64,000 bases of DNA from the human T2T-CHM13v2.0 reference genome, Homo sapiens. Within the stretch, counting starts at the first letter, position 1, and every line of letters starts with the position of its first letter. The stretch lies in NCBI RefSeq assembly GCF_009914755.1, contig NC_060947.1, one strand, 5' to 3'. Under the pieces are notes generated by a model. The model had not been told where the DNA came from. It made no database searches and saw only the letters and a program-made list of their open reading frames with translations. Of this stretch, positions 33,317-64,000 are shown in pieces. A program made the translations under genes and the position numbers.

Positions 33317-34146
<830 letters not shown>

Positions 34147-34218
34147 GTTAAGATGGTAGAGCCTGGTAATTGCATAAAACTTGAAATTTTATAATCAGAG
34201 GTTCAATTACTCTTCTTT
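34147..34218 (+). pseudogene. mt tRNA-Leu(UUR) pseudogene; its 3' end is displaced to 46597-46613 by an L1
   Basis: gttaagatggtagagcctggtaattgcataaaactt...gaggttcaattactcttctt versus human GTTAAGATGGCAGAGCCCGGTAATCGCATAAAACTT... Confidence 0.9.
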
Positions 34219-35137
34219 TTAAAATAATTGTTTATTTTATTTTTATTTTTTGTGGGTATACAGTAGGTGTATGTATTTATGGGGTACATGGGACGTTTTG
34301 ATACAGGCATGTAATGCATATCAATCACATCGTGGAAAATGGGTATCTCCTCAAGAATTTATCCTTTCTGTTACAAAAAAATCCAATTATACTCTTTTAG
34401 TTGTTTTAAAATATACAATTAAGTTATTATTGACTATAGTCACCCTGTTGTGCTATCAAATACTAGGTCCGTTTCATTCTATTTTTTGTACTGGTTAACC
34501 ATCCCCCATCTCTCCCCAACCCTCCCCAATTCCTTTCCCAGCCTCTGGTAACCATCCTTCTACTCTCTATCTCCACAGGTTAAATTGTTTTGATTTTTAG
34601 ACCCCACAAATAAATAAGAACATGCAAGGTTTCTCCTTCTATGTCTGGCTTACTTCACTTAACATAATGATCGCCAGTTCCATCCATGTTTTTGCAAATG
34701 ACTGGATCTCATTATTTTTTATGGCTGAGTAGTACTCCATCGTGTATAAGTACCACATTTTCTTTATCCATTCATCTGTTGATGGACACAGGCTTCTTCC
34801 AACTCTTGTCTATTGTGAACAGAGTGGCAACAAACATGGGAGTGCAGATGTCTCTTCAATATACTGATTTCCTTTCTTTTGGGTATATATCCAGAGTAGG
34901 ATTGCTGGATCACATGGGTAGCTCTATTTTCAGTTTTCTGAGGAACCTCCAAACTGTTCTCTACAATGGTTGTAGTAATTTACGTTCCCACCAACAGTGT
35001 ACGAGGGTTCTTTTTTCTCCACATCTTCACCTGCAATTGTTATTGCCCGTCTTTTGGACATAAGCCATTTTAACTGAGAAGGGATGATATCTCATTGTAG
35101 TTTTGATTTGCATTTCTCTGATGATTCATTACGTTGA

Positions 35138-35510
<373 letters not shown>

Positions 35511-37318
35511 TGCCCATTTTAAATTCAGATTATTATATTTTTTCCTATAGAACTATTTGAGATACTTATACATCTGGTTATTAATTCCTTGTCAGATGGG
35601 TAGTTTGCAAACATTTTTACCCATTCTGTGGTTGTTTCTTAACTTTGTTGATTGTTTCCTCTGCTGTGCAGAAGCCTTTTAACTTGATGTGATGCTATTT
35701 GTCCATTTTTGCTCTGGTTGCCTGTGCTTGTGGGGTATTACTCAAGAAATTTTTGCCCAGACTGATGTTCTGGAGAGTTTTCCCAAAGTTTTCTTGTAGT
35801 AGTTTTATAGTTTGAGGTCTTAGATTTAATTCTTTAATCCATTTTGATTTGATTTTTGTACATGATGAGAGATAGGGGTCTAGTTTCATTCTTCTGCATA
35901 TAGGTATCCAGTTTTCCCAGGACCATTTATTGAAGGTACTGTCTTTACAGTATATGTTCTTGGCACCTTTATCAAAAATGATTTCACTGTAGGCGTATGC
36001 ATTTCTTTCCGGGATCTCTATTCTGTTCCATTCATCTATGTGTCTGTTTTTATGACAGTAGTATGCTGTTTTGGTTACTATAGCTCTGCAGTATAATTTG
36101 AAGTCAGGTAATGTGATTCCTCCACTTTTATTCTTATTGCTCAGGATCGCTTTAGCTATTCTGGGTCTTTTGTGGTTCTATATCCCTTTTAGGGTACTTT
36201 TTTTCTATTTCTATGAAGATTGTCATTGGTATTTTGATAGGAATTGCATTGAATCTGTAGATTGCTTTGGGTAGTATGGGCATTTTAACAATATTGATTT
36301 TTCCAGTGCCTGAACGAGGGATATTTTTCCATCTTCTGGTGTCCCCTTCAATTTATTTCATCAGTCCTTTGTGGTTTTCATTATAGAGGTCTTTCACTTC
36401 TTTGGTTAATTCCTAGGTATTTTATTTCGTTTGTGGCTATTGTAAATGGGATTACATTTTTATTTTTTTTTTCAGATTGCTCACTGTTGGCATATAGAAA
36501 TGCTACTGATTTTTCCATGTTGATTTTGTATCCTGCAACTTTACTGAATTTATTTATTAGTATGAATAGTTTTTTGGTGGAGTCTAGGTTTTTCCAAATA
36601 TAAGATAATGTCATCTGCAAACAAGGATGATTTTAATTCTTCCTTTCCAACTTGGAGGCACTTTATAGCTTTCTCTTCTTTGGATGCTCTAGCTAAGAGC
36701 TCCAGTACTGTATTAAATAACAGTGGTGAAAGTGGCCGGCCATATTATGTTCCAGATCTTAGAGAAAAGGCTTTCAATTTTTTTTCCCATTCAGTATGAT
36801 ACTAGCTGTGGGTCTGTCAATATGGGTTTTATTATGTTGAGGTATGTTCCTTCTACCCCAGTTTTTTAGGGTTTTTATCAAGAAAGAGATGTTGAATTTT
36901 ATCAAATGCTTTTCCAGCATCAATTGAAATGATCATATGGTTTTTGTCTTTCTGTTGACATGATATATCACATTGATTGATTTGCATATGTTAAACTGTC
37001 CTTGCATCCCAAAGATAAATCCCACTTGGTCATGATGAATGATCTTTTTGATGTATCATTGAATTGGGTTTTGCTGGTATTTTGCTGAAGATTTTTGCAT
37101 CAATATTCATCATAGAAATTGGCCTATAGTTTTTTTTTAGTGTGTTTTTGTCTGGTTTTGGTATCAAAATAATACTGTCCTCATAGAATGAGTTTGGCAG
37201 TATTCCTTCCTTCTGTTTTTTGGAATAGTTTGAGTAGGATTTGGGTATTAGTTCTCTTTAAATGTTTGGTAGAATTTAGCAGTAAAGCCATGGGGTCCTG
37301 GACTTTTTCGTTACTGGG

Positions 37319-37699
37319 TGTATTAGTCTGTTTTCACACTGCTGATAAAGACATACCCCAGACTGAGACTGGGCAATTTACAAAAGAAAGAGGTTTAATT
37401 GGACTTAACAGTTCCACATGGCTGGGGAAACCTCACAATAATGGTGGAAGGCAAGGAGATACAAGTCACACCTTATATGAATGGCAGCAGGCAAACAGAG
37501 AGAGAGAGCTTGTGCAGAGAAACTCCCATCTTTAAAACCATCAGATCTCATGAGACCGGTTCACTATGACAAGAACAGCATGAGAAAGACCTATCCCCAT
37601 AATTCAAACATCTTCCCCCAGGTCCCTCGCACAACATGTGGGAATTATGGGAGCTACAAGATGAGATTTGCGTGGGGACAAAGAGCCAAACCGTTATCA
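37319..37699 (-). mobile_element. THE1 (MaLR) solo LTR inside L1MA ORF2
   Basis: tgtattagtctgttttcacactgctgataaagacatacc...gccaaaccgttatca; 5-bp TSD CTGGG at 37314-37318 and 37700-37704. Confidence 0.9.
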
Positions 37700-37741
37700 C
37701 TGGGGAGACTTTTTACTATGGCTTTAATCTCATTACTTGTT

Positions 37742-43111
<5,370 letters not shown>

Positions 43112-46100
43112 TTAATCTCATTACTTGTTATGTGTCGGTTCAGGTTTTGGATTTCTTCCTGGTTCAATCTTGGTAGGTTGTATGTGTCTAAAATCCGTTC
43201 ATTTCTTTTAGATTTTCAAATTTATTGGCATATTGTTACTCATATTAGCCACTAATGATCATTTGCTTTTCTGTGCTATCAGCTGTAATGTCTCCTTTTT
43301 CATCTCTTATTTTATTTATTTGTGTCTTCTTTTATTTTCTTAGTCTGGATACAGGTTTGTCAATTTCATTTAACTTTGCAAAAACCCAAGTTTTTGTTTC
43401 GGTGATCTTTTGTGTTGTTTTCTTCATTTTTATTTCATTTATATCTGCTCTGATCTTCATTTATTTTCTTCTAATTTGGGGTTTGAGATTTATTCTTGCT
43501 TTTGTAGTTCTTTAAGATGCATCATTAAGTTGTTTATTTGAAGGTTTTTACATTTGATGTAGACATTTATACCTATAAACTTCCCTCTGAGTACTGCTTT
43601 TGCTGTATCCCATAGGTTTTAGTGTTTCCATTATTATTTGTTTCAATAACTTTTTCAACTTCCTTCTTAATTTCTTTCTTTTCATACAGGTCATTCAGGA
43701 ACATAATGTTTAATTTCCACATTTTTGCATAGTTTCCAAAATTCCTCTTGTTATTGATTTTTAGTTTCATTCCATTGTGGTCAGAGAAGATGCTTGATAT
43801 TATTTTAGTTTTTTGAATGTTTTCAGACTTGTTTTGTGACCTGCCATATGGTCTATCCTTGAGAATGAGCCCTGTGCTGAGGAAAAGAATGTGTGTTCTA
43901 CAGCCATTGAATAAAATATTCTGTAAATTTCTATTTGGTCCATTTGATCCATAGTTTTGATTAAGTCCAAAATTTCTTTGTTAATTTTCTGTCTGGGAGA
44001 TCTTTCCAATGCTGACAGTGAGGTGTTGACGTCTCCAGCTATTATTACATTGGAATCTATATATCTCTTTAGCTCTAGTAATATTTGCTTTATATACCTG
44101 GGTGCTCCAGTGTTGGGTATATATATATTCTTAAAATTGTTATTTCCTCTTGCTGAATTGATCCTTTCATCATTATATAGTGACCTTCTTTGTCTCTTCT
44201 TATAGTTTTTGTCTTGAAATCTATTTTGTCTCATATGAGTATAGATATTCATGCTCTTTTTTGGTTGCTGTTGACATGGAATATCTTTTTTCATTGCTTT
44301 ATTTTCAGCTTATATGTGCCTTTATAGGTGAAGTGTGTTTCCAGGGACCAATCCTGGAGAAATAGAGATATGTGACCTTATTTAGTTCATTTGGTGAGGT
44401 CATGTTTTCCTGGCTGGTCTTGATACTTGTAGATGTTTGTCTGTGTCTGGGCATAATGGAGTTAGGTATTTATTGTACTCTTCAGTCTGGGCTTGTTTTT
44501 ACCCATCCTTTTTGGGAAGGCTTTCCAAAAGGACTTGAATGTTGTGATCTAAACTGTATCTGCTTTAGGTGGGACCGCAAGCCTAGGATTGTGCTGGGCC
44601 TGACCTGAAGCCAGCACATCACTGGGTCTCACCCAAGGCCTGCTGTAACCACTTCCTGGCTACCACCTATGTTTGCTTAAAGCCCTGGGGCTCTACAATC
44701 TTCAGGTGGCAAAGCTAGCTAGGCCCATGTCCTTCCCTTCAGGGAAGCAAGTTCCCTCAGGGCCTTGGTGGATCCAGAGGTGTCATCCAGAATCTAGGGA
44801 CTAGAGTCAAAAACCTTAGAAGTCTGCCTGGCGTTCTAGTGCACTGTGGATGAGCTGGCACTCAAACCACAAGATGCAGTCTTTCCCACTCTTTTCTCCC
44901 CTTTCCAAAGGCAGAGGAGCCTCACCTCATGGCCAATGCCACCTCAGGCCCACAGGAATATTGCCAGATTACTTCTGATCCTCCCTTAAGGCCCAAAGTC
45001 TCTTCAGTCAGCTTGTGGTGAATAGTGACTCACCTGGGGTTCACCATTCAGGGAAGTGGACTCCCCTCTGGCCCAGGGCAGGTTAAGAAATACTATCGAA
45101 GAATGAAGTCCTGGAATTAGTCCCACCAAGTGGGATCCCAGGAGCCCACTTGGTGCTCTACCCCCCTGTGGCTGAGCTGGTACCTAAAGTGTAAGACAAA
45201 GTTCCTTTTACTTTTCCCTCTATTTTTCTCAAGCAGAAGGAGTCTCATTCCATAGCCAACACAGTTGGGAATGTGCTGAGTGTCACCTGAAGCCAGTAAG
45301 TCTCAGAGTCTCACCCAAGGCCCTCAACATATTACCTGGGTATCACCACTGGTTATTCTGGGCTCAAGGGCTCTTCAGTTAGCAGGTGATAAATTCTGCC
45401 AGGAGCAGGACTAGGTCCTTCCCTTCAAGCAGTGGGTTCCCTTCTGGCCCAGGGTTTGTGTAGAAATGTCATCTGGGAGCTAGGGCCTGGAAAGGGGACC
45501 TCATGACTCTAATTGGTCCTCTATCCTGCTGTGGCTGAGCTGATATCCAAGATGCAAGACAAAGTCCTCCCACTGTTCTTTGTCCTCAAGTGGAAGCAAG
45601 AGATCTCTTTTGGAGCCGAGAGCTTTGCAACCTGGGTTTAGGGGATGTGTGATACCAGCACTCCCTTAGTTGTGCAGGCTGATGTCTTAGTAGGTCAAGT
45701 GCCCCTCTAGTCCACTGGCAGTGGGCCCAGTTTAGCACTAGGACTCGTCAGGTGTTGCAATCCTTGTGGCCTAGACTGCCTTTCAGATTTATTCGGAGAC
45801 CCCAAGCACTTTAGGTCACAGTGGTGAGGCCTGTGGAAACTCAAGTTCGGACCACTGGGATCAGCAATTCTGCTTTGGCTAGGTCTGGTTTAAATTCTCC
45901 CTCCATGGGTAGGCATTAGGTGGGTTTGGTCCGGTTTTGCTTTCTGCTGTAACAAGGGCAGTGCTGAGTTCAATGCCTCACAATTGCTGGCCCTCCCTCT
46001 CTCCAGCACACAGAAACTCTCAGCACCAGGTTGCTGCTGCTGGGCAATGGGGGCGACAGGGAAGGGGTGGTGTTCAGTATTCAAGACTGTTTTTCCTGCC

Positions 46101-46196
46101 TCTTCAGTGCCTCCTTCAGTGATATGAAATTCAAACCTGGTACTGTGAGTGGTTAACGGGCGTTTGGCTTTTATGAAGGTGCTTTTTTGTGTGTAG

Positions 46197-46596
<400 letters not shown>

Positions 46597-46615
46597 AACT
46601 ATTCTTCTTAACAGT

Positions 46616-47553
46616 GTGTTTATAATTGATCTTAACCTACTCATTACCCCTGCCATTCTCTCTATAGCATTCTTAACATTAGTTGAACAAAATGTATTAG
46701 CCTATATGCAGCTTCTCAAAGGGCCTAACAGTATAGGCCCCTGTGGCCTACTTCAACCCTTTGTAGGCACAATAAAACTGTTAAAGAGCCACTGTGACCA
46801 CTGACATCTTCTATACTCTTATACAGTATTGCACCTACCCTAGCCCTACCCCTTGTACTTACTATATGAATCCCATTACCTATACCACATCCATTAATTA
46901 GCCTAAACATAGGAATGCTATTCATCTTAGGTACATCAAGCCTAGCCATATCTTCTATCCTATGATCAGGATGAGCATCAAATTCAAATTATGCATTAAT
47001 TGGTACACTATGAGCAGCAGCACAAACAATTTCATATGAAGTCACCCTAGCCATTATCCTATTACCAGTTCTCCTAATAAACAGATCATTTACACTGTCA
47101 ATATTCTAATTATTACCATAGAATATATATGACTAGTTCTTCCATCATGACCCTTGTTCATAATAAAATTTATTTCAACACTAACAGAAACTACTTGAGC
47201 TCTATTCATTCTGACAGAGGATGAGTCAGAACTGGTAACAGGCTTTAAAGTTGACTATGCTGCAGGCCTATTTGCCCAAATGTTTTAAATAGCAGAATAC
47301 ACCAACATCAATATAATAAGCACTAAACACTATCATTTTTCTAGGGGCACTCCATGACATTCACATACAGGAAATTTATGTAATCAATTCTATCATTAAA
47401 ACACTCCTCTTATGAGTTCATGCATCATATCCACAATTCCAATATGATCAACTCACGCACCTGTTTGAAAATTTTTTTTTAGCATTTGCACTAGCATTAT
47501 GCATGACACATCTATATGCCCATTTTACTATCTAGTATTCTACCAAAAACATT
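46616..47553 (+). pseudogene. MT-ND1 pseudogene (NUMT)
   Basis: [32 protein letters not shown] resembles ND1 [31 protein letters not shown]; gcacaaacaatttcatatgaagtcacc = AQTISYEVT; multiple frameshifts. Confidence 0.93.
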
Positions 47554-47618
47554 TTAAAAAGTCTAATAAAAATTATTTTCATAGAGTAAATAAAAGAGGT
47601 TTAAATCCTCTATTTACA
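47553..47618 (+). pseudogene. mt tRNA-Ile pseudogene
   Basis: gtctaataaaaattattttcatagagtaaataaaagaggtttaaatcctc, directly after ND1. Confidence 0.75.
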
Positions 47619-47689
47619 GGATTATAGGAATTGAACCTACTCTCTTAAGAATTCAAAAATCTTTGTGCTACCTGATACACTATATTCTA
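47617..47689 (-). pseudogene. mt tRNA-Gln pseudogene
   Basis: aggattataggaattgaacctac...aagaattcaaaaatctttgtgctacc...; position in the IQM cluster. Confidence 0.8.
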
Positions 47690-47690
47690 T

Positions 47691-47759: not shown

Positions 47760-49346
47760 ATTAATCCCTTAATCTTTTCTACCATCCCATCTACTCTGTT
47801 CATAGGAACCATAATCACTTATTCAGCTCACAGTGATTAATAATCTGAATAGGACTAGAAATAAATATATATCATTACCCCCATTTTAATCAAATAAGCA
47901 AACCCATGATCCACAGAAGTAGCTACATATTAACACAAGCACCTCTATCTATACTCCTAACAATGCTCATTATCATTATATATTGTACTCTGGACAATGA
48001 AGAGTTGTAAAAATTTCCAGCCAAACAGCATCCCTAATAATTATTATAGCACTAGTTATGAGATTTGGATTATCACCCTTCCATTTTGAAGTGCCAGTAG
48101 TTACACAAGAAATCTCAGTAACATCAGTTGTAATTCTACTAACATGATGACAATGTGAAAGGAAAATAAATCTTGGGACCCCAAGCTCATTAAGCCAAAG
48201 GGAAAAGTTAAGCCGGGAACTGGGTCACTCAAAACTGTCTCCCCCTTTTGATTCCTAAATAAGATGACTACAAGATGAAAAGCTACATGCTTCCCCCATA
48301 TTTTGCCCACAAGGAAATTCCTAGTGAGCTCCAAGATCTTTACCCTAAGGTGTTTCTGTTAAAATTTCACCATGACAATGTAACTCCATAGCTCATTGAC
48401 AGGTGCAATCACTCCCCTGCCCACGTGACACAAATGCATATCTGATTGTTCCCCTGCCCCATTTTGCCTATGTTATCTTATGTAAAAATACAGATTCCCT
48501 GCATTTTTCCTCTGCCCCATTTGTCTGTGTCATCCTAAGTAAAAATGCAGATTCACTGAGCCAGACAAAGACATGAATCACTATTTTTCCTTATCCCCCT
48601 CTTACATGAAAATTGTGTACTTCTCAATACCCTGCCCTTTTCCCTTTAAATTTGGAGCCCTCAAAATCATCTTAGGAGAAAGGCATAGACCTGTTTCCTG
48701 GGTGCACATCCTTAACTTTGGCAAATAAACCTCCTAAAATAATTGAGACTTGTCTCCTCATTTTTCTTGATTGACAACAACTAGCACCAATTTCAATTAT
48801 GTTTCAGGTATCATCATCAGTTGATCTAAATATAATGCTAAAAATTGCTATGTTGTCTGTTCTAGTAAGAGGGTGAGGAGGACTTAATCAGACAAAACTT
48901 TGAAAAATCTTAGCCTACACATCAATTGCACACATAGGCTGAAAAACAACTACCTTCTTTTATAGCCCTTCCACAATAATTCTAAATTTACTAATTTATG
49001 TAATCCTAATACTCACCATATTCATAATATTTAGCTTAAATACAAACACCACAACCCTATCACTATCACACATATGGAATAAGTTACCATTAATAATTTC
49101 CATAATCCTTATTACCCTTTTATCCTTAGGTCTACCCCCACTTACAGGATTTCTTCTCAAATGAATTATTATTCAAGAACTAACAAAAACCACACCATCA
49201 TCATGGCAACATTTAAAGCTATTATAGTGTTACTCAACCCATACTTTTATATACGATTAATCTATCCTACATCATTAACCGTGTTTCCAACAAACATTAA
49301 CATAAAAACAAAATGACAGCTCACAAATTTAAAACATTCTTTCTAC
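47760..49346 (+). pseudogene. MT-ND2 pseudogene (NUMT), split by an LTR and 3'-truncated
   Basis: attaatccc start; atctgaataggactagaaataaat (IWMGLEMN); tgaggaggacttaatcagaca (WGGLNQT); ggtctacccccacttacagga (GLPPLTG). Confidence 0.9.
48154..48776 (+). mobile_element. MER4-family solo LTR inside ND2
   Basis: TGTGAAAGGAAAATAAATCTTGGGACCCC...TTGACA; 4-bp TSD ACAA at 48150-48153 and 48777-48780. Confidence 0.88.
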
Positions 49347-52300
49347 TGTGAATCCCCAAAATTTGAGACAAATCTCAGCTAATTTAGAAAGTTTATTTTG
49401 CCAAGGTTGAGGATATGTGCTCATGACACAGCCTCAGGAGGTCCTGATGACATGTGCCCAGGGTGGTCAGAGCACAGCTTGGTTTTATACAATTTAGGGA
49501 GACATGAACCATCGATCAACATATGTAAAATGAACATTAGTTTGGTCTGGAAAGATGGGACAACTCTAAACAAAAGCAGGACAATTTGAAGCAGGGAAGG
49601 GGCTTCCAGGTCACAGGTAGGTGAGAGAAACTTGGTTGCATTTTTTTTGAGTTTCTGATTTGCCTTTCCAAAGGGAGCAATCAGGTATGCATTTATCTCA
49701 GTGAGCAGAGGGATGACTTTGAATAGAATGGGAGGCAGGTTTACCCCAGGCAGTTCCCAGATTGAATTTTCCCTTTAGCTTAGTGATTTTGGGGGCCCAA
49801 GATATTTTCCTTTCACATTCCCCCCCACATCCCCAACCTTTTATTTTTAAAAATCTTTTGGAGAAAGCATTTTAGAAGAAAATGAGTCTCTGGTCCCAGG
49901 TTTTATCTGATCTCTCATGGCTAGGATGGTTTTTTCCTAGACAGGTAGGTCCTGATTTATTAGGAAAAGCTCATTTTTAGCAGGTTGTTAAGTCTCATGT
50001 CCTATGAAGAAAAAATAGGGGAAGGAAGGGAGAAAAACAACAACAAACAAAAGAACGAACCTGGAAAATCAATATAGGCAACGTTACTCTGAAGTCCATA
50101 CATCAGTAGGCAGGTATGAAGGTGGCTTATGTATGTAAATAGGTTGCTCTTATTTTTGCTGTAGTTTAAATTGTCTAGCTTCAGTTCACAGGGCTATATG
50201 AAAACACAGCTTAGTTTCAGTGACTTAAAATTAGGAAAAATGGGGAAAAAAGGAAAAGAAAGTTGAAAACATTATTTTGCAGGCTTGTAGCCAAGAAAAA
50301 TTAGAATTCGATCCAAACAGTAGAAAATAATAAAATGGAAAAATGTTAGGCAAGATTAGAATCTAACAACAGGTGTACTATAGTTTTGAAACCATTTTTC
50401 TCTCTCCAGTTTCCCATTTTTACTAAAGACAAATTATGGTAGGACTGGTTTGCTTTATTCTACTTGGCCTAATTATTTGTATACAATGCAGCAAGAATAA
50501 TTATTTTTTACATAGGCTTTTAAATTGGCTTCAATGGTACTTTGTTCCATAGAAGGAATCTCAGATAAGACTTTTTTAAAGCCGAGCCCAGCCATGGATT
50601 TGTGCCATCAAATTCCTGTGAGTTGGGTGAATTTCCTCTTCTCTTGAGGTTCCAAGATAAACTTGGGGCTCCTGGGCCTGTCAGAAAGTGACATTCTTTA
50701 CTTGCCACCGGTTAGGAACCCTGTACAGAGCTGTGCAGACAAAGGTAAGAGGCTACTTTTTCCAAGGGGCTGTTATTGGCTCCGTAAATTAGGTTTGATA
50801 CCTTAAAGGATAGCACACCATTCCAGTCAAAGCCTTGGTAAAATAACCAGTTTCTTCAATTGTGTCCTGTTACACATGAAAACAGATTCTTATTGCACTT
50901 ACGCAAATAACTATATTGTCATAAGTTAAGAATACTCACAAATAGTTTCCAAATTCTGGAGAAATTAGGTAGAGAGAAATATGCTTCAAATTTTGTTCAC
51001 AGGAGTATAGTTTACTCAATTGTTACAAGCTGTAACTAGCTTGAAAGTTTTCCTGACTCTGAAAAACAAAACAAAGGATTAGCAAGGTTTTAACCAAAAA
51101 GTTAAAAAGATTACTTTAGTCTTCTATTAGTTCAGTTCACACAGTTAACTCCTGTTCTGCTTGATATTCATGAACATTTCAGCTCTTCATGAGAGTCCTG
51201 AAAGTTTTTTCCTCTATTCTAATGTCACAAACTCCAAAGTTATCAGAAACCTGCGTTTAACAACGCCTGTTACACAGTTCTATGGCTGATTATAAAACCA
51301 CCTTCTAAGGAGGATCAAACAAGACAATTGTCTGTGAATGACAAAAGCTTTTAGGGCAACCATAGTCAAAGACACAATTGACAAGGAAATTTGTTACCTC
51401 TGTGGCATACAATAATTTAACATAACAATTATAATTATTACTAATAATGTACACTAAGTCATATCAGAATTATAGGAGTTTCCCGTGATTTTGGAACACA
51501 TACCAATAACATTTATACAAATACATCCTAAAGAAAACCAAATACCTTTTCATATTTGACACTGTTTCCTGTATAATTTTTATACCAAATAAGCCAAATT
51601 ATTTCATTTTTGGACTTTAGGGAAACTAATATCTCAAAGGATTAATTAGATCAGAAAAAGATATAATTTGTAATTTGATTTTGGAAAGTTTGTCAAATAT
51701 CAAAGGGTTAAAACACTTGATATCACAGGTCATTGTAAAATAAGTCATTCATTTGATCAAAATGATAACTCAAGGATTTCAAAAAAAAGGTGAAAACCTT
51801 CATTCTTTGATAGAAGAGACTTGATTTTCCAAACAGTCAGCCCTAATAAAAAGAGCATGAAGCCAATTAAGTGTTTTTCAAAATTTTGTAGTCTATAAAA
51901 TTTTAATTTTGACCATAAGATAATAGCTTCCATAAGCCTTTCATAACCTTTATAACCTCTATTTAGGAGTCAGTTAATGCTTCAAGAAAACCTTGTTAAT
52001 CTGACATGGGCGCATATGCTGGTCTTGCATCAGTGTGCCTTTGACATTAATGATTAATTTATAGGGAAACTGAATTTATTTTATGTCTCAAAATTGGCCC
52101 TTATAATCTCATATGCCCACCTCTTCTGCGATAGTCCCTGGGCCTTGAGGAGTTGAATAGCTCTAATTTCTGGCCCTGTGTTTCAGGAATGCAGTTTATT
52201 TTGATTGGCATCTTCTACCAGGCCTGAAGATGGGGCTTTAACTGCTGTCAGTGTTTAAAATTTAGCAGGACTTGGTGTCCTTTTTAGACCCAGGAGTCAA

Positions 52301-52370
52301 ACCCCTGTAACTCAATGTCACAAGTACTTTAAAAGTGCATACAGAGAGAAACACAGATGTTAATAATGTT
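49347..52370 (-). mobile_element. MER4A1-like provirus remnant: 3' LTR (49347-49817), polypurine tract and internal sequence
   Basis: LTR termini tgtgaa...tttcaca; on the minus strand a G-rich purine tract (49818-49834) sits immediately before the LTR; the internal region is non-coding. Confidence 0.8.
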
Positions 52371-58038
<5,668 letters not shown>

Positions 58039-58039
58039 A

Positions 58040-58475
<436 letters not shown>

Positions 58476-59114
58476 ATGGTGTACCCATTCTAACTGGGCT
58501 TTCTCAATGCAATATCAACTCTTATAGACGTTCTCCATTTCCACCACCACACATTAATAACCATTTTCTTAATTATAGAGGACTAATACTATTAATGTTT
58601 TATTAATACTAACAACTAAATTAACTTATACACATATACAGATGCTCAAGAAGTAGACAGTATGAACTATTCTACCCACTATTATTTTGAACCTAATTGC
58701 CTAACTGTAAACACTATAGGCCACCAATGATTAACATGAAACCCCTTGAGAAAAAAAAATGAACCTTGATTATTGTATAATTCATACAACAGATCTTAAA
58801 CCAGGGGAGCTACGATTACTTGAAGTTGATAATTGAGTAGTTTTACCCATAGAAATATCAATTTGCATACTAATCTCATTTGAAAATGTATTACATCCAT
58901 GAACTGTTCCATCATTAGGCTTAAAAACAGACAGAATTACAGGGTGTTTAAATCAAACAACCCCAACATCCACATGACTAGGCCTATATTATGGTCAGTG
59001 CTCAGAAATTTTTGGATCAAATCAGGGCTTCATACCTATTATACCTGAATTAGTTCCTCTAAATCATTTAAAAAACTGATTAACATTTTGAAACTATTAA
59101 CATCTATGTTATAA
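58476..59114 (+). pseudogene. MT-CO2 pseudogene (NUMT)
   Basis: ATG at 58476; gatcttaaaccaggggagctacgattacttgaagttgataat = [14 protein letters not shown]; tatggtcagtgctcagaaatt (YGQCSEI); TAA at 59112-59114. Confidence 0.93.
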
Positions 59115-59117
59115 TAT

Positions 59118-59179
59118 CACTGTTAAATAGCATTAACCTTTTAAGTTAAAGACTGAAAGTACTCATCTTTCTGCAATGA
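59118..59179 (+). pseudogene. mt tRNA-Lys pseudogene
   Basis: cactg...tagcattaaccttttaagttaaagactga...gcaatga. Confidence 0.85.
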
Positions 59180-59180
59180 A

Positions 59181-59385
59181 ATGCCACAACTAGCTACGTC
59201 AACATGATTTATCACTATGGTTTTAATAATTCTTATACTATTTATCTTATTTCAATTAAAAACTTCAAAATATATCTACTGTTTAAGCCCAATACCAAAA
59301 AATATTGAAGCATTATAACATGAAACCCCTTGAGAAAAAAAGTAAACAAAAATGTATTGGCATCTTTCATTATCCTTACAATAGT
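59181..59385 (+). pseudogene. MT-ATP8 pseudogene
   Basis: atgccacaactagctacgtcaacatgattt = MPQLATSTWF in the mt code; ccttgagaa (PWE) near the end. Confidence 0.88.
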
Positions 59386-59909
59386 AGAATTACCCTTGAT
59401 ATTCTAATCATTTCATTCCCAAACATTATATTCCCTACCCCAATCACCTAATCAATAATCAACTAATCACCATACAATGATTAGTGCAACTCATATTAAA
59501 ACAAATTATAATAATATACAATGTCAAAGGGTGAACTTTATCCCTCATATTAATTTCACTTATTCTATTTATTACCTCAACAAACATCAGGATGACTAAC
59601 CCACTCATTTATGCCAATAACTCAGTTATCAATAAATCTAAATATAGATATCCCACTATAACCAAGAGCAGTTATCACTGACTTCCACCACAAAACAAAA
59701 GAGTCATTGGCTTGTTTGCTACCACAAGGATCACCCATTCCACTAACCTCTATACTTGTACTTATTAAAATTAACCTTTTTATTCAACACTTAGCCCTGG
59801 CTGAACAACTAACAGCCAATATTATAGCCATCCATCTACTCATACACTTAATCAGTAATGCCACACTAGTGATAATATCCATTAGTTTTGCAACAGCTTG
59901 AATGTATTT

Positions 59910-60418
<509 letters not shown>

Positions 60419-60508
60419 TAATTATATTTACCATCTTTGAATTTGCTGCAGCCCAAATTCAAACATACCTCTTCACTATACTAGTCTTTACTTGCACAAC
60501 AATACTTA

Positions 60509-60837
60509 ATGACCTACCAAATACATAGCTATCATGTATTTGACCCTTGACCCTGACCACTTACAGGAGCTCTATCAGCCCTGCTAATAATATCTGACTT
60601 AGTAATATGATTTCACTTTAACCTAGCTATCTTATTATCTTTAGGTCTGCAAACCAATAGATTAATGATATACCAGGGATGATGAGATATTGTCCGAGAA
60701 AGCAGATTTTCAAGGTCATCACATATTAATTGTTCAAAAAGGCCTATGTTTCTATTTATCATGTCAGAAATCTTCTTCAAAGGCTTCTTCTGAACTTTCT
60801 ACCACTTCAGTCTGCCCCCAACCCCAGAAGTATGAGG
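60509..60837 (+). pseudogene. MT-CO3 pseudogene, 5' part only
   Basis: ccctgaccacttacaggagctctatcagccctgcta (PWPLTGALSALL); tgatgagatattgtccgagaaagc (W-DIVRES); ggcttcttctga...gccccaaccccagaa. Confidence 0.88.
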
Positions 60838-60879
60838 TATCCTACTTGCTATAATTATTAACCAATTAACTAATTAACT

Positions 60880-62346
60880 AATTTATTTTCATTAGCTTAT
60901 GCCTCTTAAGCCAATCTAATGAAAATAGCCTAAGTTTTTCATTAGTCTTTTTCTTTGATTCAAAATCAGCCCCCCTTTTTATATTAACGTGATTGCTCTG
61001 CTTAATAATTATAGCCAGTCAGCATCATCTCTGCAAAGAATCATATATATGAAAAAATTACATATTTCTCTATTAATCTTTCTACAAATGTTTTTAATGA
61101 TAAAATTTACTGCTACAGAATTCTATTTTATATGCTCTTTGAAGCAACACTAATAGCAACACTAATCGTCATTACCTGATGAGGAAATCAAACAGAATGA
61201 TTAAATACAGGACTCTTATTTCCTGTTCTATACACTGGCTCCCTGCTCCTACTCATAGCACTAATTTATATCCAAAACTCCATAGGCTTATTAAACTTCT
61301 TAGTAGCCTCCTACTGAATTCAAGCACTACTACCAAGCCCCTGATCTAATAGCCTTTTATGGTTAGCATATATAATAGCATTTATAGTAAACATACCCCT
61401 TTAGGCCTTCACCTCTGATTACCAAAAGCACAGGTACAAGCCCCAGTTGCTGTGCCCATGGTTCTTGCAGTCATATTATGAAAATTAGGGGACTATGGCA
61501 TAATACAAATTACTGTGATTTAAAATCCACTAACAGAATTTATAGCTTACCCATTTCTTATACTATCCTTGTGAGAAATAGCAAACTGTATTTGTTTATG
61601 CCAAACGGACTTAAAGTCACTCATGGTATATTCATCCAAAAGTCATATGGCACTCGTAGTTGTAGTTGTTCTTATCCGAACACCATGAAGTTTTATAGGA
61701 GCAATAGCCCCAATAATTGCCCATGGCCTCACCTCATCCATATTATTCTGCATCAAGTTATGAATGAATTCATAGCTGAACCATGCTATTAGCTCGAGGA
61801 CTACAGACACTATTACCTCTCGTAGCTAACATGAGTACTAGCTAGCCTAACTAACCTAGCCCTATCACCAGCCATCAACTTAGAGAGTTATTTGTAGTTA
61901 TAGCATCATTCTCATTATCTCATTTTACCATTGCCGTAGTAAAATTTAGTATATTTATTATGGCCTTATATTCTCTCTATATGTTAATCATAACATAATT
62001 AGGAAAATTTATGTATCACATTAATAATATCAAACCATGCCAGTCACAGTCATGCATGCCTGTAATCCCAGCACTTTGGGAGGCTGAGGCAGGAGGATTA
62101 CTGGAGTCCTTTCTACAAAAAATAAAAATAGCTGCACATGGTGGCATGTGCTTGTAGTCCAGCTACTTGGGAGGCTAAAGAGGAAAGATTGCTTGAGCCC
62201 AGGAGTTTAAGTCTGCAGCAAGCTATGATTGCACCACTGCACTGCAGCCTGGGTGACAGAGTGAGATCCTATCTATATCTATATCTATTTGCAAAATAAT
62301 ATACTCTTCTCACTTAACCCAAAAATCATTCTAGGACCCATATACT
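60880..62346 (+). pseudogene. MT-ND4 pseudogene (NUMT), split by an Alu
   Basis: tttgaagcaacactaata (FEATL); tgaggaaatcaaacagaa (WGNQTE); cacctctgattaccaaaagca (HLWLPKA); ataattgcccatggcctcacctcatcc (MIAHGLTSS). Confidence 0.9.
62039..62275 (+). mobile_element. AluJ-like with internal deletion, inside ND4
   Basis: catgcctgtaatcccagcactttgggaggctgagg...gcttgagcccaggag...gcctgggtgacagagtgaga. Confidence 0.85.
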
Positions 62347-62415: not shown

Positions 62416-63916
<1,501 letters not shown>

Positions 63917-63986
63917 ACTTTTAAAGGGTAGAAGTAATCTGTTGGCCTTAGGAGCCAAAAAATCGATACAACTCCAAATAAAAGTA
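63917..63986 (+). pseudogene. mt tRNA-Leu(CUN) pseudogene, followed by the ND5 start (ATA AAT ATA TTT at 63988)
   Basis: acttttaaagg...ttggccttaggagccaaaaaat...caactccaaataaaagta; TAG anticodon. Confidence 0.88.
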
Positions 63987-64000
63987 AATAAATATATTTT

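What the first reader, a model, noticed from the sequence alone, without database searches (positions are those of the whole stretch)
58476..59400. NUMT proteins look pre-anthropoid, closer to mouse/cow than human
Seen (mt code): COX2 starts MVYPF*LGF and contains [28 protein letters not shown]; ATP8 starts MPQLATSTWFIT; ND5 starts MNMF; COX2 and tRNA-Lys are only 3 nt apart. Recalled: human has [51 protein letters not shown] and a longer spacer with the 9-bp repeat, while mouse/bovine have MAYP(F/M)QLG, (D/E)[20 protein letters not shown] and MPQLDTSTW. Inference: the insertion predates the accelerated anthropoid evolution of COX2 and samples an ancestral primate mtDNA.
Basis: partly seen in the sequence, partly recalled or inferred. 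Interest (0 to 1): 0.8.

Follow-up and report, generated by a model that had tools for sequence, protein, structure and literature searches.

The report
Ancient mitochondrial DNA insert on X
This is a very old, decayed copy of mitochondrial DNA in the human X chromosome that still carries the generic mammalian versions of the mitochondrial proteins; such old copies are common in our genome and this one is already catalogued.

Summary
Under the mitochondrial code the window reads COX2 as MVYPF*LGF, then [30 protein letters not shown]. ATP8 starts MPQLATSTWFIT and ND5 starts MNMF. The gap between COX2 and tRNA-Lys is 3 nt.

- **Closer to non-primates.** The COX2 pseudogene is 72% identical to a consensus of 201 non-anthropoid mammals and 56% to a hominoid-type copy. 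At 35 sites where the hominoid type is derived, it is ancestral at 20 and hominoid-like at 3.
- **Not special.** Many other human NUMT copies of COX2 show the same pre-anthropoid look.
- **Twin copy.** A colinear copy lies at chr2:202.03 Mb. The two differ at 23% of sites, almost evenly over codon positions, so both came from the same mtDNA.
- **Age.** Decay at conserved COX2 sites is about 0.12-0.14 per site, twice that of the large intermediate class (0.06). This is as diverged as the oldest Alus sampled.

The insertion therefore predates the COX2 acceleration and probably lies near the base of primates. It cannot be placed before or after the lemur or tarsier splits: no New World monkey or tarsier sequence and no orthologous locus could be examined. 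The NUMT is annotated in RefSeq and listed in a published catalogue. Low interest.

The parts
33950..34222 (+). 16S rRNA 3' end and tRNA-Leu(UUR) of the same NUMT, 12.4 kb upstream of ND1. The anticodon is mutated, so ARAGORN calls it Ser(tga).
   Evidence: Rfam tRNA hit at 34147-34221. ARAGORN places it at 34146-34222. Sequence read. Naming it 16S / tRNA-Leu rests on recall of the human mtDNA sequence. 16S fragments upstream of ND1 are listed for this locus in the Uvizl 2023 supplement.
46625..47551 (+). ND1 pseudogene (MTND1P32)
   Evidence: RefSeq table supplied with the finding. Not re-derived here.
47615..47690 (-). tRNA-Gln, on the opposite strand as in mtDNA
   Evidence: ARAGORN. Rfam tRNA hit at 47616-47689.
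47761..49382 (+). ND2 pseudogene (MTND2P2). Its last open stretch ends at 49382.
   Evidence: RefSeq table. Table 2 ORF list.
57097..58167 (+). COX1 3' part with tRNA-Ser and tRNA-Asp, interrupted by an Alu at 57427-57746
   Evidence: blastn to the chr5 NUMT: 57190-57426 and 57780-58166. blastn to the chr2 copy: 57834-58181. Alu confirmed.
58168..58457 (-). Alu, S-like, 0.049 non-CpG divergence, inserted just upstream of COX2. Absent from the chr2 twin.
58476..59114 (+). COX2 pseudogene, 639 nt in place of 684. It has a stop at codon 6, a 17-codon deletion (aa 77-93), frameshifts, and further stop codons downstream.
58732..58757 (+). 26-nt patch copied from the ATP8 3' end (59316-59341). It replaces part of the COX2 segment aa 105-116, which no longer reads as COX2.
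   Evidence: Exact direct repeat. The chr2 twin keeps normal COX2 sequence at this place.
59118..59180 (+). tRNA-Lys pseudogene, 3 nt after the COX2 stop
   Evidence: Alignment to the chr5 and chr2 NUMTs.
59181..59384 (+). ATP8 pseudogene (67 codons, 2 internal stops). It overlaps the ATP6 start at 59342 by 43 nt.
   Evidence: The overlap was counted by hand from those two outputs.
59342..59955 (+). ATP6 pseudogene, 5' part
   Evidence: blastn to the chr5 and chr2 NUMTs. RefSeq MTATP6P19.
59956..60415 (-). Two Alu-type insertions: a partial one at 59956-60100, and a full one at 60105-60405 with 0.112 non-CpG divergence, the oldest Alu inside the NUMT
60405..60838 (+). ATP6 3' end and COX3 5' part. 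About 1.3 kb that should follow (COX3 3', ND3, ND4L) is deleted here but present in the chr2 twin.
60877..62037 (+). ND4 pseudogene
   Evidence: 76% identity to the chr2 twin. RefSeq MTND4P32.
63859..63987 (+). tRNA-His / Ser / Leu(CUN) cluster
   Evidence: 82% identity to the chr5 NUMT. Sequence read.
63988..64000 (+). ND5 start (ATA AAT ATA TTT = MNMF). ND5, ND6 and CYTB continue beyond the window.
   Evidence: blastn of 65580-68063 to the chr5 NUMT.

Best explanation
Window 58476-59400 is the COX2 / tRNA-Lys / ATP8 / ATP6 stretch of one large nuclear copy of mitochondrial DNA (a NUMT). The NUMT runs from 16S rRNA to CYTB and beyond, and is now spread over more than 35 kb by later L1 and Alu insertions.

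It entered the nuclear genome of a human ancestor before the burst of amino-acid replacements that reshaped COX2 in monkeys and apes. The time was probably close to the origin of crown primates, very roughly 60-90 million years ago. At that time the lineage's mtDNA still encoded the generic placental versions of COX2, ATP8 and ND5.

Since insertion it has had no function. It has changed at the nuclear neutral rate, about 0.12 substitutions per site, equally at all codon positions. It has also collected stops, frameshifts, deletions, Alus and a small templated patch.

A second copy at chr2:202.03 Mb comes from the same or a nearly identical mtDNA. Either both were integrated in the same episode, or one was duplicated from the other right after insertion.

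- **Shown:** identity as a NUMT, lack of hominoid-type residues, greater decay than other NUMT classes, and the twin relationship.
- **Inferred:** the absolute date and the position relative to the lemur and tarsier splits.
For: **It is a NUMT.**
- It is colinear with mtDNA gene order and with two other NUMTs.
- The frames read only under table 2 and are broken.

**Pre-acceleration state.**
- Over 187 scorable residues, identity is 72.2% to the consensus of 201 non-anthropoid mammals, 70.1% to pig, 63.6% to Lemur catta and 56.1% to the hominoid-type copy L024.
- L024 itself differs from PDB chain 5z62_B at 8 of 227 residues.
- At 35 sites derived in L024, X is ancestral at 20, L024-like at 3, other at 6 and missing at 6. 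The catarrhine-like copy L021 is derived at 27 of the 35.
- The PDB bit scores favour non-primate chains.
- All named primates among the listed database hits are lemuriforms, with no anthropoid, in three searches listing 119, 120 and 120 proteins.

**Tree** (mtMAM+F+G4, 59 rows by 227 columns).
- The human NUMTs form a ladder.
- X plus the chr2 copy (92.8/89) fall outside the clade of L008, the intermediate classes and the hominoid-like copies (93.3/99).

**Decay at 233 first and second codon sites that stayed constant in mammals and in L024**.
- X: 23/194 = 0.119 (CI 0.080-0.172).
- chr2 copy: 33/233 = 0.142.
- Eight class-B copies: 110/1829 = 0.060.
- L021: 10/233 = 0.043.

**Twin copy.**
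- 4180 aligned sites, 23.0% different, K2P 0.284, 644 transitions and 318 transversions.
- Differences per codon position are 0.215 / 0.200 / 0.258. Against the chr5 copy they are 0.299 / 0.184 / 0.541.

**Later insertions.**
- None of the Alus is shared between X and chr2.
- The Alus inside X show 0.049, 0.054 and 0.112 non-CpG divergence.
- The chr2 copy hosts a J-like Alu.
Against: **Missing taxa.** No labelled New World monkey, tarsier, loris, colugo or treeshrew sequence could be obtained. 'Outside crown anthropoids' therefore rests on human NUMT proxies plus recalled literature, not on a labelled tree.

**Weak backbone.** The placental backbone of the COX2 tree is unresolved. All NUMTs together get 43.2/60 and sit next to rodents rather than lemurs. 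Nothing shows a specifically primate origin.

**Possible tree artefact.** X and the chr2 copy are the two longest branches in that tree (0.42 and 0.38), so their pairing there could be partly long-branch attraction. The DNA evidence is independent of it.

**Overlapping intervals.** The decay intervals of X (0.080-0.172) overlap those of L004, L005 and L007 (0.06-0.15).

**Shaky absolute date.** The dating uses recalled branch lengths and Alu ages. In addition, the X chromosome mutates more slowly than autosomes.

**L024-like residues.** Three L024-like residues (positions 31, 70, 225) are present in X. I read them as chance changes, because the twin is ancestral at two of them.
Confidence: 0.85

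Rival explanations
1. The insertion is on the anthropoid stem. It came after the tarsier split but before most COX2 replacements, so it belongs to the well-known haplorrhine burst of NUMTs and is not older than primates' deep splits.
For: Uvizl 2023 places a burst of NUMT insertions in Haplorhini, after the split from Strepsirrhini (passages). Gherman 2007 dates about 75% of human NUMTs longer than 500 bp to within 10 My of 54 Mya (passages). The lower confidence limit of X decay (0.080) approaches the class-B value of 0.060. Even class-B copies carry only 2-7 of the 35 hominoid-type residues, so 'looks generic' does not by itself mean pre-haplorrhine.
Against: Point estimates of decay are twice those of class B in both twins (0.119 and 0.142 against 0.060), and about 0.12 per copy from 1598 first and second codon sites. 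In the tree, X and the chr2 copy branch below L003 and L008, which already carry H3 and L9. The twin hosts a J-like Alu, and divergence of the NUMT equals that of the J-like Alu group (0.125 to own consensus).
Confidence: 0.25
2. The insertion predates primates altogether, in a euarchontogliran or boreoeutherian ancestor. The sampled mtDNA would then be that of an earlier placental, not of an ancestral primate.
For: COX2 of X is closest to the all-mammal consensus and closer to pig and bison than to lemurs. The NUMT clade does not join lemurs in the tree. K2P/2 over all sites is 0.142 per copy, near the human-lineage distance to the rodent split as I recall it. Uvizl 2023 reports a few NUMTs ancestral to deeper nodes, including Eutheria (passages).
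Against: Decay from first and second codon sites is nearer 0.12. Very few NUMTs of that age are reported (11 blocks ancestral to Primates). Lemur COX2 has its own lineage changes, which lower identity without bearing on the date. No test of orthologous loci was possible.
Confidence: 0.2
3. The copy is young (crown anthropoid or later). Its resemblance to mouse and cow would be produced by random decay, or by the reader's selective choice of motifs.
For: None beyond the 3 of 29 scorable diagnostic sites that carry the hominoid-type residue.
Against: 20 of 29 scorable diagnostic sites are ancestral; random decay does not restore specific ancestral residues. DNA identity to the hominoid-like chr5 copy is only 65.5% over 4238 sites, with 54% difference at third positions. 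Decay is 2.8 times that of the catarrhine-like copy. S-type Alus have inserted into it.
Confidence: 0.01

Closest known systems
This same NUMT as already catalogued: RefSeq pseudogenes MTND1P32 ... MTND4P32, and Hsap_numt753-764 in the supplement of Uvizl et al. 2023 (Mol Biol Evol 41:msad278)
   Same: Same locus. The supplement lists hg38 chrX:102,772,561-102,809,983 with pieces from 16S, ND1, COX1, COX2 (71% identity to human mtDNA), ATP6/COX3, ND4, ND5 and CYTB (supplement passages).
   Different: In the passages I saw, the catalogue gives coordinates and identities only. I saw no age, no link to the chr2 copy and no orthology statement for this block. The rest of the 3-million-character supplement was not read.
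The large class of old human NUMTs dated to about 54 Mya (Gherman et al. 2007, PLoS Genet 3:e119)
   Same: Long, decayed, repeat-interrupted NUMTs that branch below monkeys and apes in mtDNA trees. In my sample 22 of 25 other COX2-bearing copies also lack the hominoid-type residues.
   Different: The X copy and its chr2 twin show about twice the decay of the most numerous class (0.119 and 0.142 against 0.060), and they branch below it. I read passages only; their per-NUMT table is a PDF or old .xls and was not seen.
The NUMT at chr2:202,030,051-202,039,045 (T2T-CHM13)
   Same: Colinear from the COX1 3' end to ND5. It is the best genome-wide match of the X copy at 77% identity (the next best are 72%). 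Differences are nearly even over codon positions.
   Different: It is shorter. It keeps the 1.3 kb from COX3 to ND4L that X lost. It lacks the 17-codon COX2 deletion, the ATP8 patch and every Alu of X, and it has its own Alus.
NUMTs used as 'molecular fossils' of ancestral mtDNA (concept reviewed in Hazkani-Covo et al. 2010, PLoS Genet 6:e1000834; seen in a search listing only)
   Same: A frozen sample of mtDNA evolving at the slow nuclear rate, usable as an outgroup-like sequence.
   Different: Nothing new in principle. Here two copies of one source allow the decay to be separated from the source sequence.

Membership tests
NUMT (nuclear copy of mitochondrial DNA) | Colinear with vertebrate mtDNA gene order, including strand of tRNAs | tested here: met
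   Order found: 16S end / tRNA-Leu, ND1, tRNA-Gln(-), ND2 ... COX1 3', COX2, tRNA-Lys, ATP8, ATP6, COX3, ND4, tRNA cluster, ND5.
NUMT (nuclear copy of mitochondrial DNA) | Readable as mt proteins only under the mitochondrial code, and disabled by stops and frameshifts | tested here: met
   Table 2 translations match COX2 and ATP8. They carry stops, frameshifts and a 17-codon deletion.
NUMT (nuclear copy of mitochondrial DNA) | Lies in a nuclear chromosome and evolves without coding constraint after insertion | tested here: met
   The window is chrX of the assembly. Alus are inserted in it. X-chr2 differences are 0.215 / 0.200 / 0.258 over codon positions, with ts/tv 2.0.
Pre-anthropoid NUMT (inserted before crown Anthropoidea) | Lacks the amino-acid states derived in catarrhine / hominoid mtDNA | tested here: met
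   20 ancestral, 3 derived-like, 6 other and 6 missing of 35 sites. The catarrhine-like L021 has 27 derived.
Pre-anthropoid NUMT (inserted before crown Anthropoidea) | Branches outside a clade of New World monkey plus catarrhine mtDNA in a tree | tested here: inconclusive
   It is outside the clade of hominoid-like, catarrhine-like and intermediate human NUMTs (93.3/99). No labelled anthropoid or tarsier sequence was obtainable.
Pre-anthropoid NUMT (inserted before crown Anthropoidea) | Present at the orthologous locus in New World monkeys (and tarsier or lemur if older) | not testable with these tools
   Only the human assembly and prokaryote genomes are held.
Post-insertion nuclear duplicate (X and chr2 from one integration) | Shared disabling mutations or shared flanking or inserted nuclear sequence | tested here: inconclusive
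   No shared Alu or flank. Apparent shared 1-nt indels dissolve on inspection. At 202 constant sites, 3 identical changes are shared, all CpG C-to-T, no more than X shares with unrelated copies. Two shared changes at invariant Ser codons 156 and 162, and 3-nt deletions nearby, remain ambiguous.

The most novel reading that the evidence does not exclude
The X copy and its chr2 twin are the oldest COX2-bearing NUMTs in the human genome and predate the strepsirrhine-haplorrhine split, or primates altogether.

Two independently decaying copies of one source molecule survive. Together with the roughly 14 kb of mtDNA covered by the X copy alone, they would allow several kilobases of the mitochondrial genome of a stem primate or euarchontan to be read back. 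That would give a fixed point for timing the later anthropoid acceleration.

The ladder of human NUMTs seen here already suggests that most hominoid-type COX2 replacements arose in the short interval between decay levels 0.060 and 0.043.
Probability: 0.4. Interest if true: 0.35.

Novelty: already known. Interest (0 to 1): 0.15.

Why it matters
It matters little in itself. Old NUMTs that predate the anthropoid changes are a known and numerous class, and this one is annotated and catalogued.

Its modest value is as a well-preserved, long sample of mtDNA from about the time primates arose, with a twin copy that lets decay be told apart from the original sequence. That could help to root primate mitochondrial trees and to time the acceleration of COX2 and other respiratory-chain genes.

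Practically, it is also a reminder that such copies attract mis-mapped mitochondrial reads. Metagenome gene callers also pick them up: a database protein with no listed source, represented on 175 contigs, has exactly the letters of this pseudogene read with TGA as W.

Tried and rejected
- a 64-aa X piece, 119 proteins listed.
- class-B NUMT L018, aa 1-186, best 120 of 7992 listed.
- profile of the N-termini of L003 and L008, best 120 of 2557 listed.

Stem-like queries are always closer to slowly evolving mammals than to the long-branched anthropoids. A hominoid-like query was not tried, because within-species variants are kept as separate entries and human variants would probably have filled the list.

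**3. One integration followed by a long shared nuclear history for X and chr2.** This was not supported.
- The apparent shared 1-nt indels in ND4, ND5 and ATP8 are a homopolymer-run ambiguity or alignment artefacts.
- The 3-nt COX2 deletions sit at different places in the two copies.
- Shared point changes at constant sites (3, all CpG) are no more than X shares with unrelated copies: 4 with L004 and 3 with L003.

**4. COX1 5' half and the WANCY tRNAs in 49383-52400.** No mt-like open stretch was found among 26 table-2 ORFs. The stretch 49383-57096 appears to be non-mitochondrial.

**5. Confirming the upstream 16S pieces by self-search of the genome.** The search returned only an interspersed repeat family. 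The 16S end and tRNA-Leu were then found by Rfam, ARAGORN and reading.

**6. Literature search for the pseudogene names.** It returned expression studies only, 62 papers, none about origin in the 10 listed.

**7. Gene names near the locus in the Uvizl supplement.** No occurrences. Coordinates worked instead.
Full report
**What is there.** The stretch 58476-59400 is part of a NUMT.
- Under the vertebrate mitochondrial code it reads a COX2 pseudogene from 58476: MVYPF, a stop, then LGF.
- It is followed by a tRNA-Lys pseudogene from 59118, ATP8 from 59181 (MPQLATSTWFIT...), and ATP6 from 59342.
- The last 12 bases before the window's end read ATA AAT ATA TTT, which is MNMF, the start of ND5.
- COX2 ends ...SML-TAA at 59103-59114 in a shifted frame. 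Three bases separate it from tRNA-Lys. A hominoid-like NUMT on chr5 has 26 bases at the same place.

**Comparators.**
- A 64-residue stop-free piece of COX2 scores 77.5, 77.0, 75.2 and 72.3 bits against PDB chains 8ugi_4B, 1occ_B, 7o37_b and 5j4z_BO. It scores 52.6 bits against 5z62_B. That these are pig, cattle, mouse, sheep and human is my recall of the entries.
- ATP8 scores 45.1 bits (6j5i_8) and 32.8-34.7 bits (9w2t_8, 6j54_8, 6tt7_Q, 6zbb_8) against 22.4 bits (8h9f_Q).
- In the large protein database the same COX2 piece found 119 proteins. The named ones are rodents, xenarthrans, bats, carnivores, ungulates, afrotherians and lemuriforms, and none is an anthropoid.

**A proxy for present-day human mtDNA and a ladder of fossils.** The assembly holds no chrM: it has 24 contigs. 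It does hold many other NUMTs.
- I fetched 26 loci matching this stretch.
- I projected the COX2 part of 25 of them, plus the window copy, on the frame of L024 (chr5:100.56 Mb). L024 has an intact COX2 frame that differs from 5z62_B at 8 of 227 residues.
- The copies fall into a graded series:
  - L024 and the partial L026 (hominoid-like);
  - L021 (catarrhine-like);
  - L010 and L012;
  - a numerous class B of nine copies;
  - L008 and L003;
  - an oldest-looking group with the generic placental sequence: L007, L005, L004, L002 and the window copy, plus partial copies.

The 'closer to cow than to human' look is thus shared by most human COX2 NUMTs, 22 of the 25 others.

**Counts.** A consensus was built from 201 labelled non-anthropoid mammalian COX2 proteins.
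- L024 differs from a residue held by at least 80% of them at 35 positions.
- The window copy is ancestral at 20, L024-like at 3, something else at 6 and unreadable at 6.
- L021 is derived at 27. Class-B copies are derived at 2-7.
- Over 187 scorable residues the window copy is 72.2% identical to the mammal consensus, 70.1% to pig, 68.4% to bison, 63.6% to Lemur catta and 56.1% to L024.

**Tree.** IQ-TREE (mtMAM+F+G4) was run on 59 rows by 227 columns: 40 labelled proteins chosen by hand to cover orders, out of 201, plus 19 NUMT rows. Seven partial NUMT copies were left out.
- The tree reproduces the ladder.
- Class B plus L010/L012 plus L024/L021 form a clade (95.3/100).
- L008 joins it (93.3/99), then L003 (89.8/82).
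- The window copy pairs with L002 (92.8/89) below these.
- All NUMTs together are only weakly one group (43.2/60). They sit next to rodents rather than lemurs, and the backbone is unresolved.
- The tree therefore shows 'outside the derived human lineage' but says nothing reliable about 'inside primates'.

**The twin on chr2.** L002 was by far the best match in the genome: 77% identity, with 72% for the next two.
- Fetching 40 kb around it showed a NUMT at chr2:202,030,051-202,039,045 that is colinear with the window copy from the COX1 3' end to ND5.
- Over 4180 aligned sites the two differ at 23.0% (K2P 0.284), with 644 transitions and 318 transversions. Each differs from the hominoid-like chr5 copy at 34-35%.
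- In COX2, ND4 and ND5 the X-chr2 differences are 0.215, 0.200 and 0.258 at codon positions 1, 2 and 3. Against the chr5 copy they are 0.299, 0.184 and 0.541.
- Nearly all divergence between the twins therefore arose without coding constraint, after both had left the mitochondrion. Their sources were the same or almost the same mtDNA.
- The small third-position excess leaves room for very little mitochondrial evolution between them.
- None of their Alus is shared.
- The apparent shared 1-nt indels are a homopolymer-run ambiguity or alignment artefacts.
- Shared point changes at constant sites are no more frequent than with unrelated copies.
- Two shared changes at invariant serine codons and neighbouring 3-nt deletions stay ambiguous.
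- Whether this was one integration followed by immediate duplication, or two integrations in one episode, is open.

**Age.** The measure used 233 first and second codon sites of COX2. Their base is fixed by an amino acid conserved in at least 97% of the 201 mammals and is unchanged in L024.

| Copy | Mismatches | Decay |
|---|---|---|
| Window copy | 23 of 194 | 0.119 (CI 0.080-0.172) |
| chr2 twin | 33 of 233 | 0.142 |
| L004 / L005 / L007 | - | 0.103 / 0.100 / 0.089 |
| L003 | - | 0.064 |
| L008 | - | 0.047 |
| Eight class-B copies, pooled | 110 of 1829 | 0.060 |
| L021 | 10 of 233 | 0.043 |

- The twin comparison gives the same figure independently: 0.2075 raw at first and second positions, about 0.12 per copy after correction.
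- As an internal yardstick, 39 full-length Alus from the fetched DNA split into an S-like group and a J-like group of 7. Mean non-CpG divergence from own consensus is 0.070 and 0.125.
- The Alus inside the window NUMT are at 0.049, 0.054 and 0.112. The chr2 twin hosts a J-like Alu.
- The NUMT is thus about as diverged as the oldest Alus sampled, and about twice as diverged as the class-B NUMTs and S-like Alus.
- I converted this with human-lineage neutral branch lengths and Alu ages that I recall, which are not from any call. That places the insertion near the base of crown primates, very roughly 60-90 Mya.
- On this evidence it cannot be placed before or after the tarsier, lemur or even rodent splits.

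**Literature.**
- Gherman et al. 2007 (passages) date about 75% of human NUMTs longer than 500 bp to within 10 My of 54 Mya, around the prosimian-anthropoid split.
- Uvizl et al. 2023 (passages) report a burst in Haplorhini and 11 NUMT blocks ancestral to Primates.
- Their supplement lists this very locus as Hsap_numt753-764 at hg38 chrX:102,772,561-102,809,983. The COX2 piece is 71% identical to human mtDNA (supplement passages). I saw no age or orthology for it there.
- Brand et al. 2022 (passages) summarise that cytochrome c, and its binding site on cytochrome oxidase, evolved fast from the anthropoid stem to humans.
- The pseudogenes are named in RefSeq (table supplied with the finding). 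A search for those names found only expression studies among the 10 of 62 papers listed.

**Verdict.** The insertion predates the anthropoid reshaping of COX2 and is among the oldest of the COX2-bearing NUMTs sampled.
- 'Ancestral primate' is plausible but unproven.
- The thing belongs to a known, abundant class and is itself catalogued, so interest is low.

- The twin copy on chr2.
- A decay-based relative age.
- The upstream extension of the NUMT to the 16S end and tRNA-Leu at 33950-34222.
- A 26-nt patch copied from ATP8 into COX2.

Noticed in passing
window 58732-58757 and 59316-59341: An exact 26-nt direct repeat. The downstream copy is the normal 3' end of ATP8 (...HETPWEKK...). The upstream copy replaces part of a COX2 segment (codons 105-116) that no longer reads as COX2. 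The chr2 twin has normal COX2 sequence there, so this is a later, X-specific templated patch copied from 584 bp away. Being still identical, it is much younger than the NUMT.
   Followed up: partly
G000 C2:202030051-202039045 (loci L033-L034): A twin NUMT, from the COX1 3' end to ND5, that comes from the same source mtDNA as the X copy. It is 77% identical, with differences nearly even over codon positions. It has its own Alus, including a J-like one at 202,032,780-202,033,050.
   Followed up: yes
window 33950-34222, then 34223-46624: The NUMT starts well upstream of the annotated ND1 pseudogene. The 16S 3' end and tRNA-Leu(UUR), with a mutated anticodon, lie at 33950-34222. L1-like sequence begins directly after, and 12.4 kb of repeats separate it from ND1 at 46625. 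RefSeq rows in the supplied table do not cover this part.
   Followed up: partly
window 49383-57096: No mitochondrial-like reading frame follows the end of ND2. The WANCY tRNAs and the 5' part of COX1 (about 1.3 kb of mtDNA) are missing. They are replaced by about 3 kb of unmasked sequence plus a 4-kb repeat block. The origin of the unmasked 3 kb was not examined.
   Followed up: partly
window 60838-60877, against C2:202033960-202035266: The X copy has lost about 1.3 kb (COX3 3' part, tRNA-Gly, ND3, tRNA-Arg, ND4L) that the chr2 twin keeps. The 17-codon deletion in COX2 (aa 77-93) is also specific to X.
   Followed up: partly
loci L002-L027 (human COX2 NUMTs): The NUMT copies form a time series. 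Class-B copies (decay 0.060) carry only 2-7 of the 35 hominoid-type COX2 residues, while the catarrhine-like L021 (decay 0.043) carries 27. Most of the COX2 replacement therefore seems packed into a short interval. L010 and L012 (chr2:130.7 and 131.8 Mb) share 7 decay changes and are evidently nuclear duplicates.
   Followed up: partly
protein P0001: A 113-aa database protein with no listed source, represented on 175 contigs. It has exactly the letters of this COX2 pseudogene read with TGA=W, ATA=I and AGA=R. It may be this window's own reading (the tool lists such proteins without a source), or human DNA in metagenome assemblies called as a gene.
   Followed up: no
window 33758-33809, 38250-38301, 58279-58330 and others: Rfam matches to mir-1268, mir-3135 and Metazoa_SRP, all below the gathering scores, all fall inside Alu elements. 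They are Alu-derived, not separate RNA genes.
   Followed up: no
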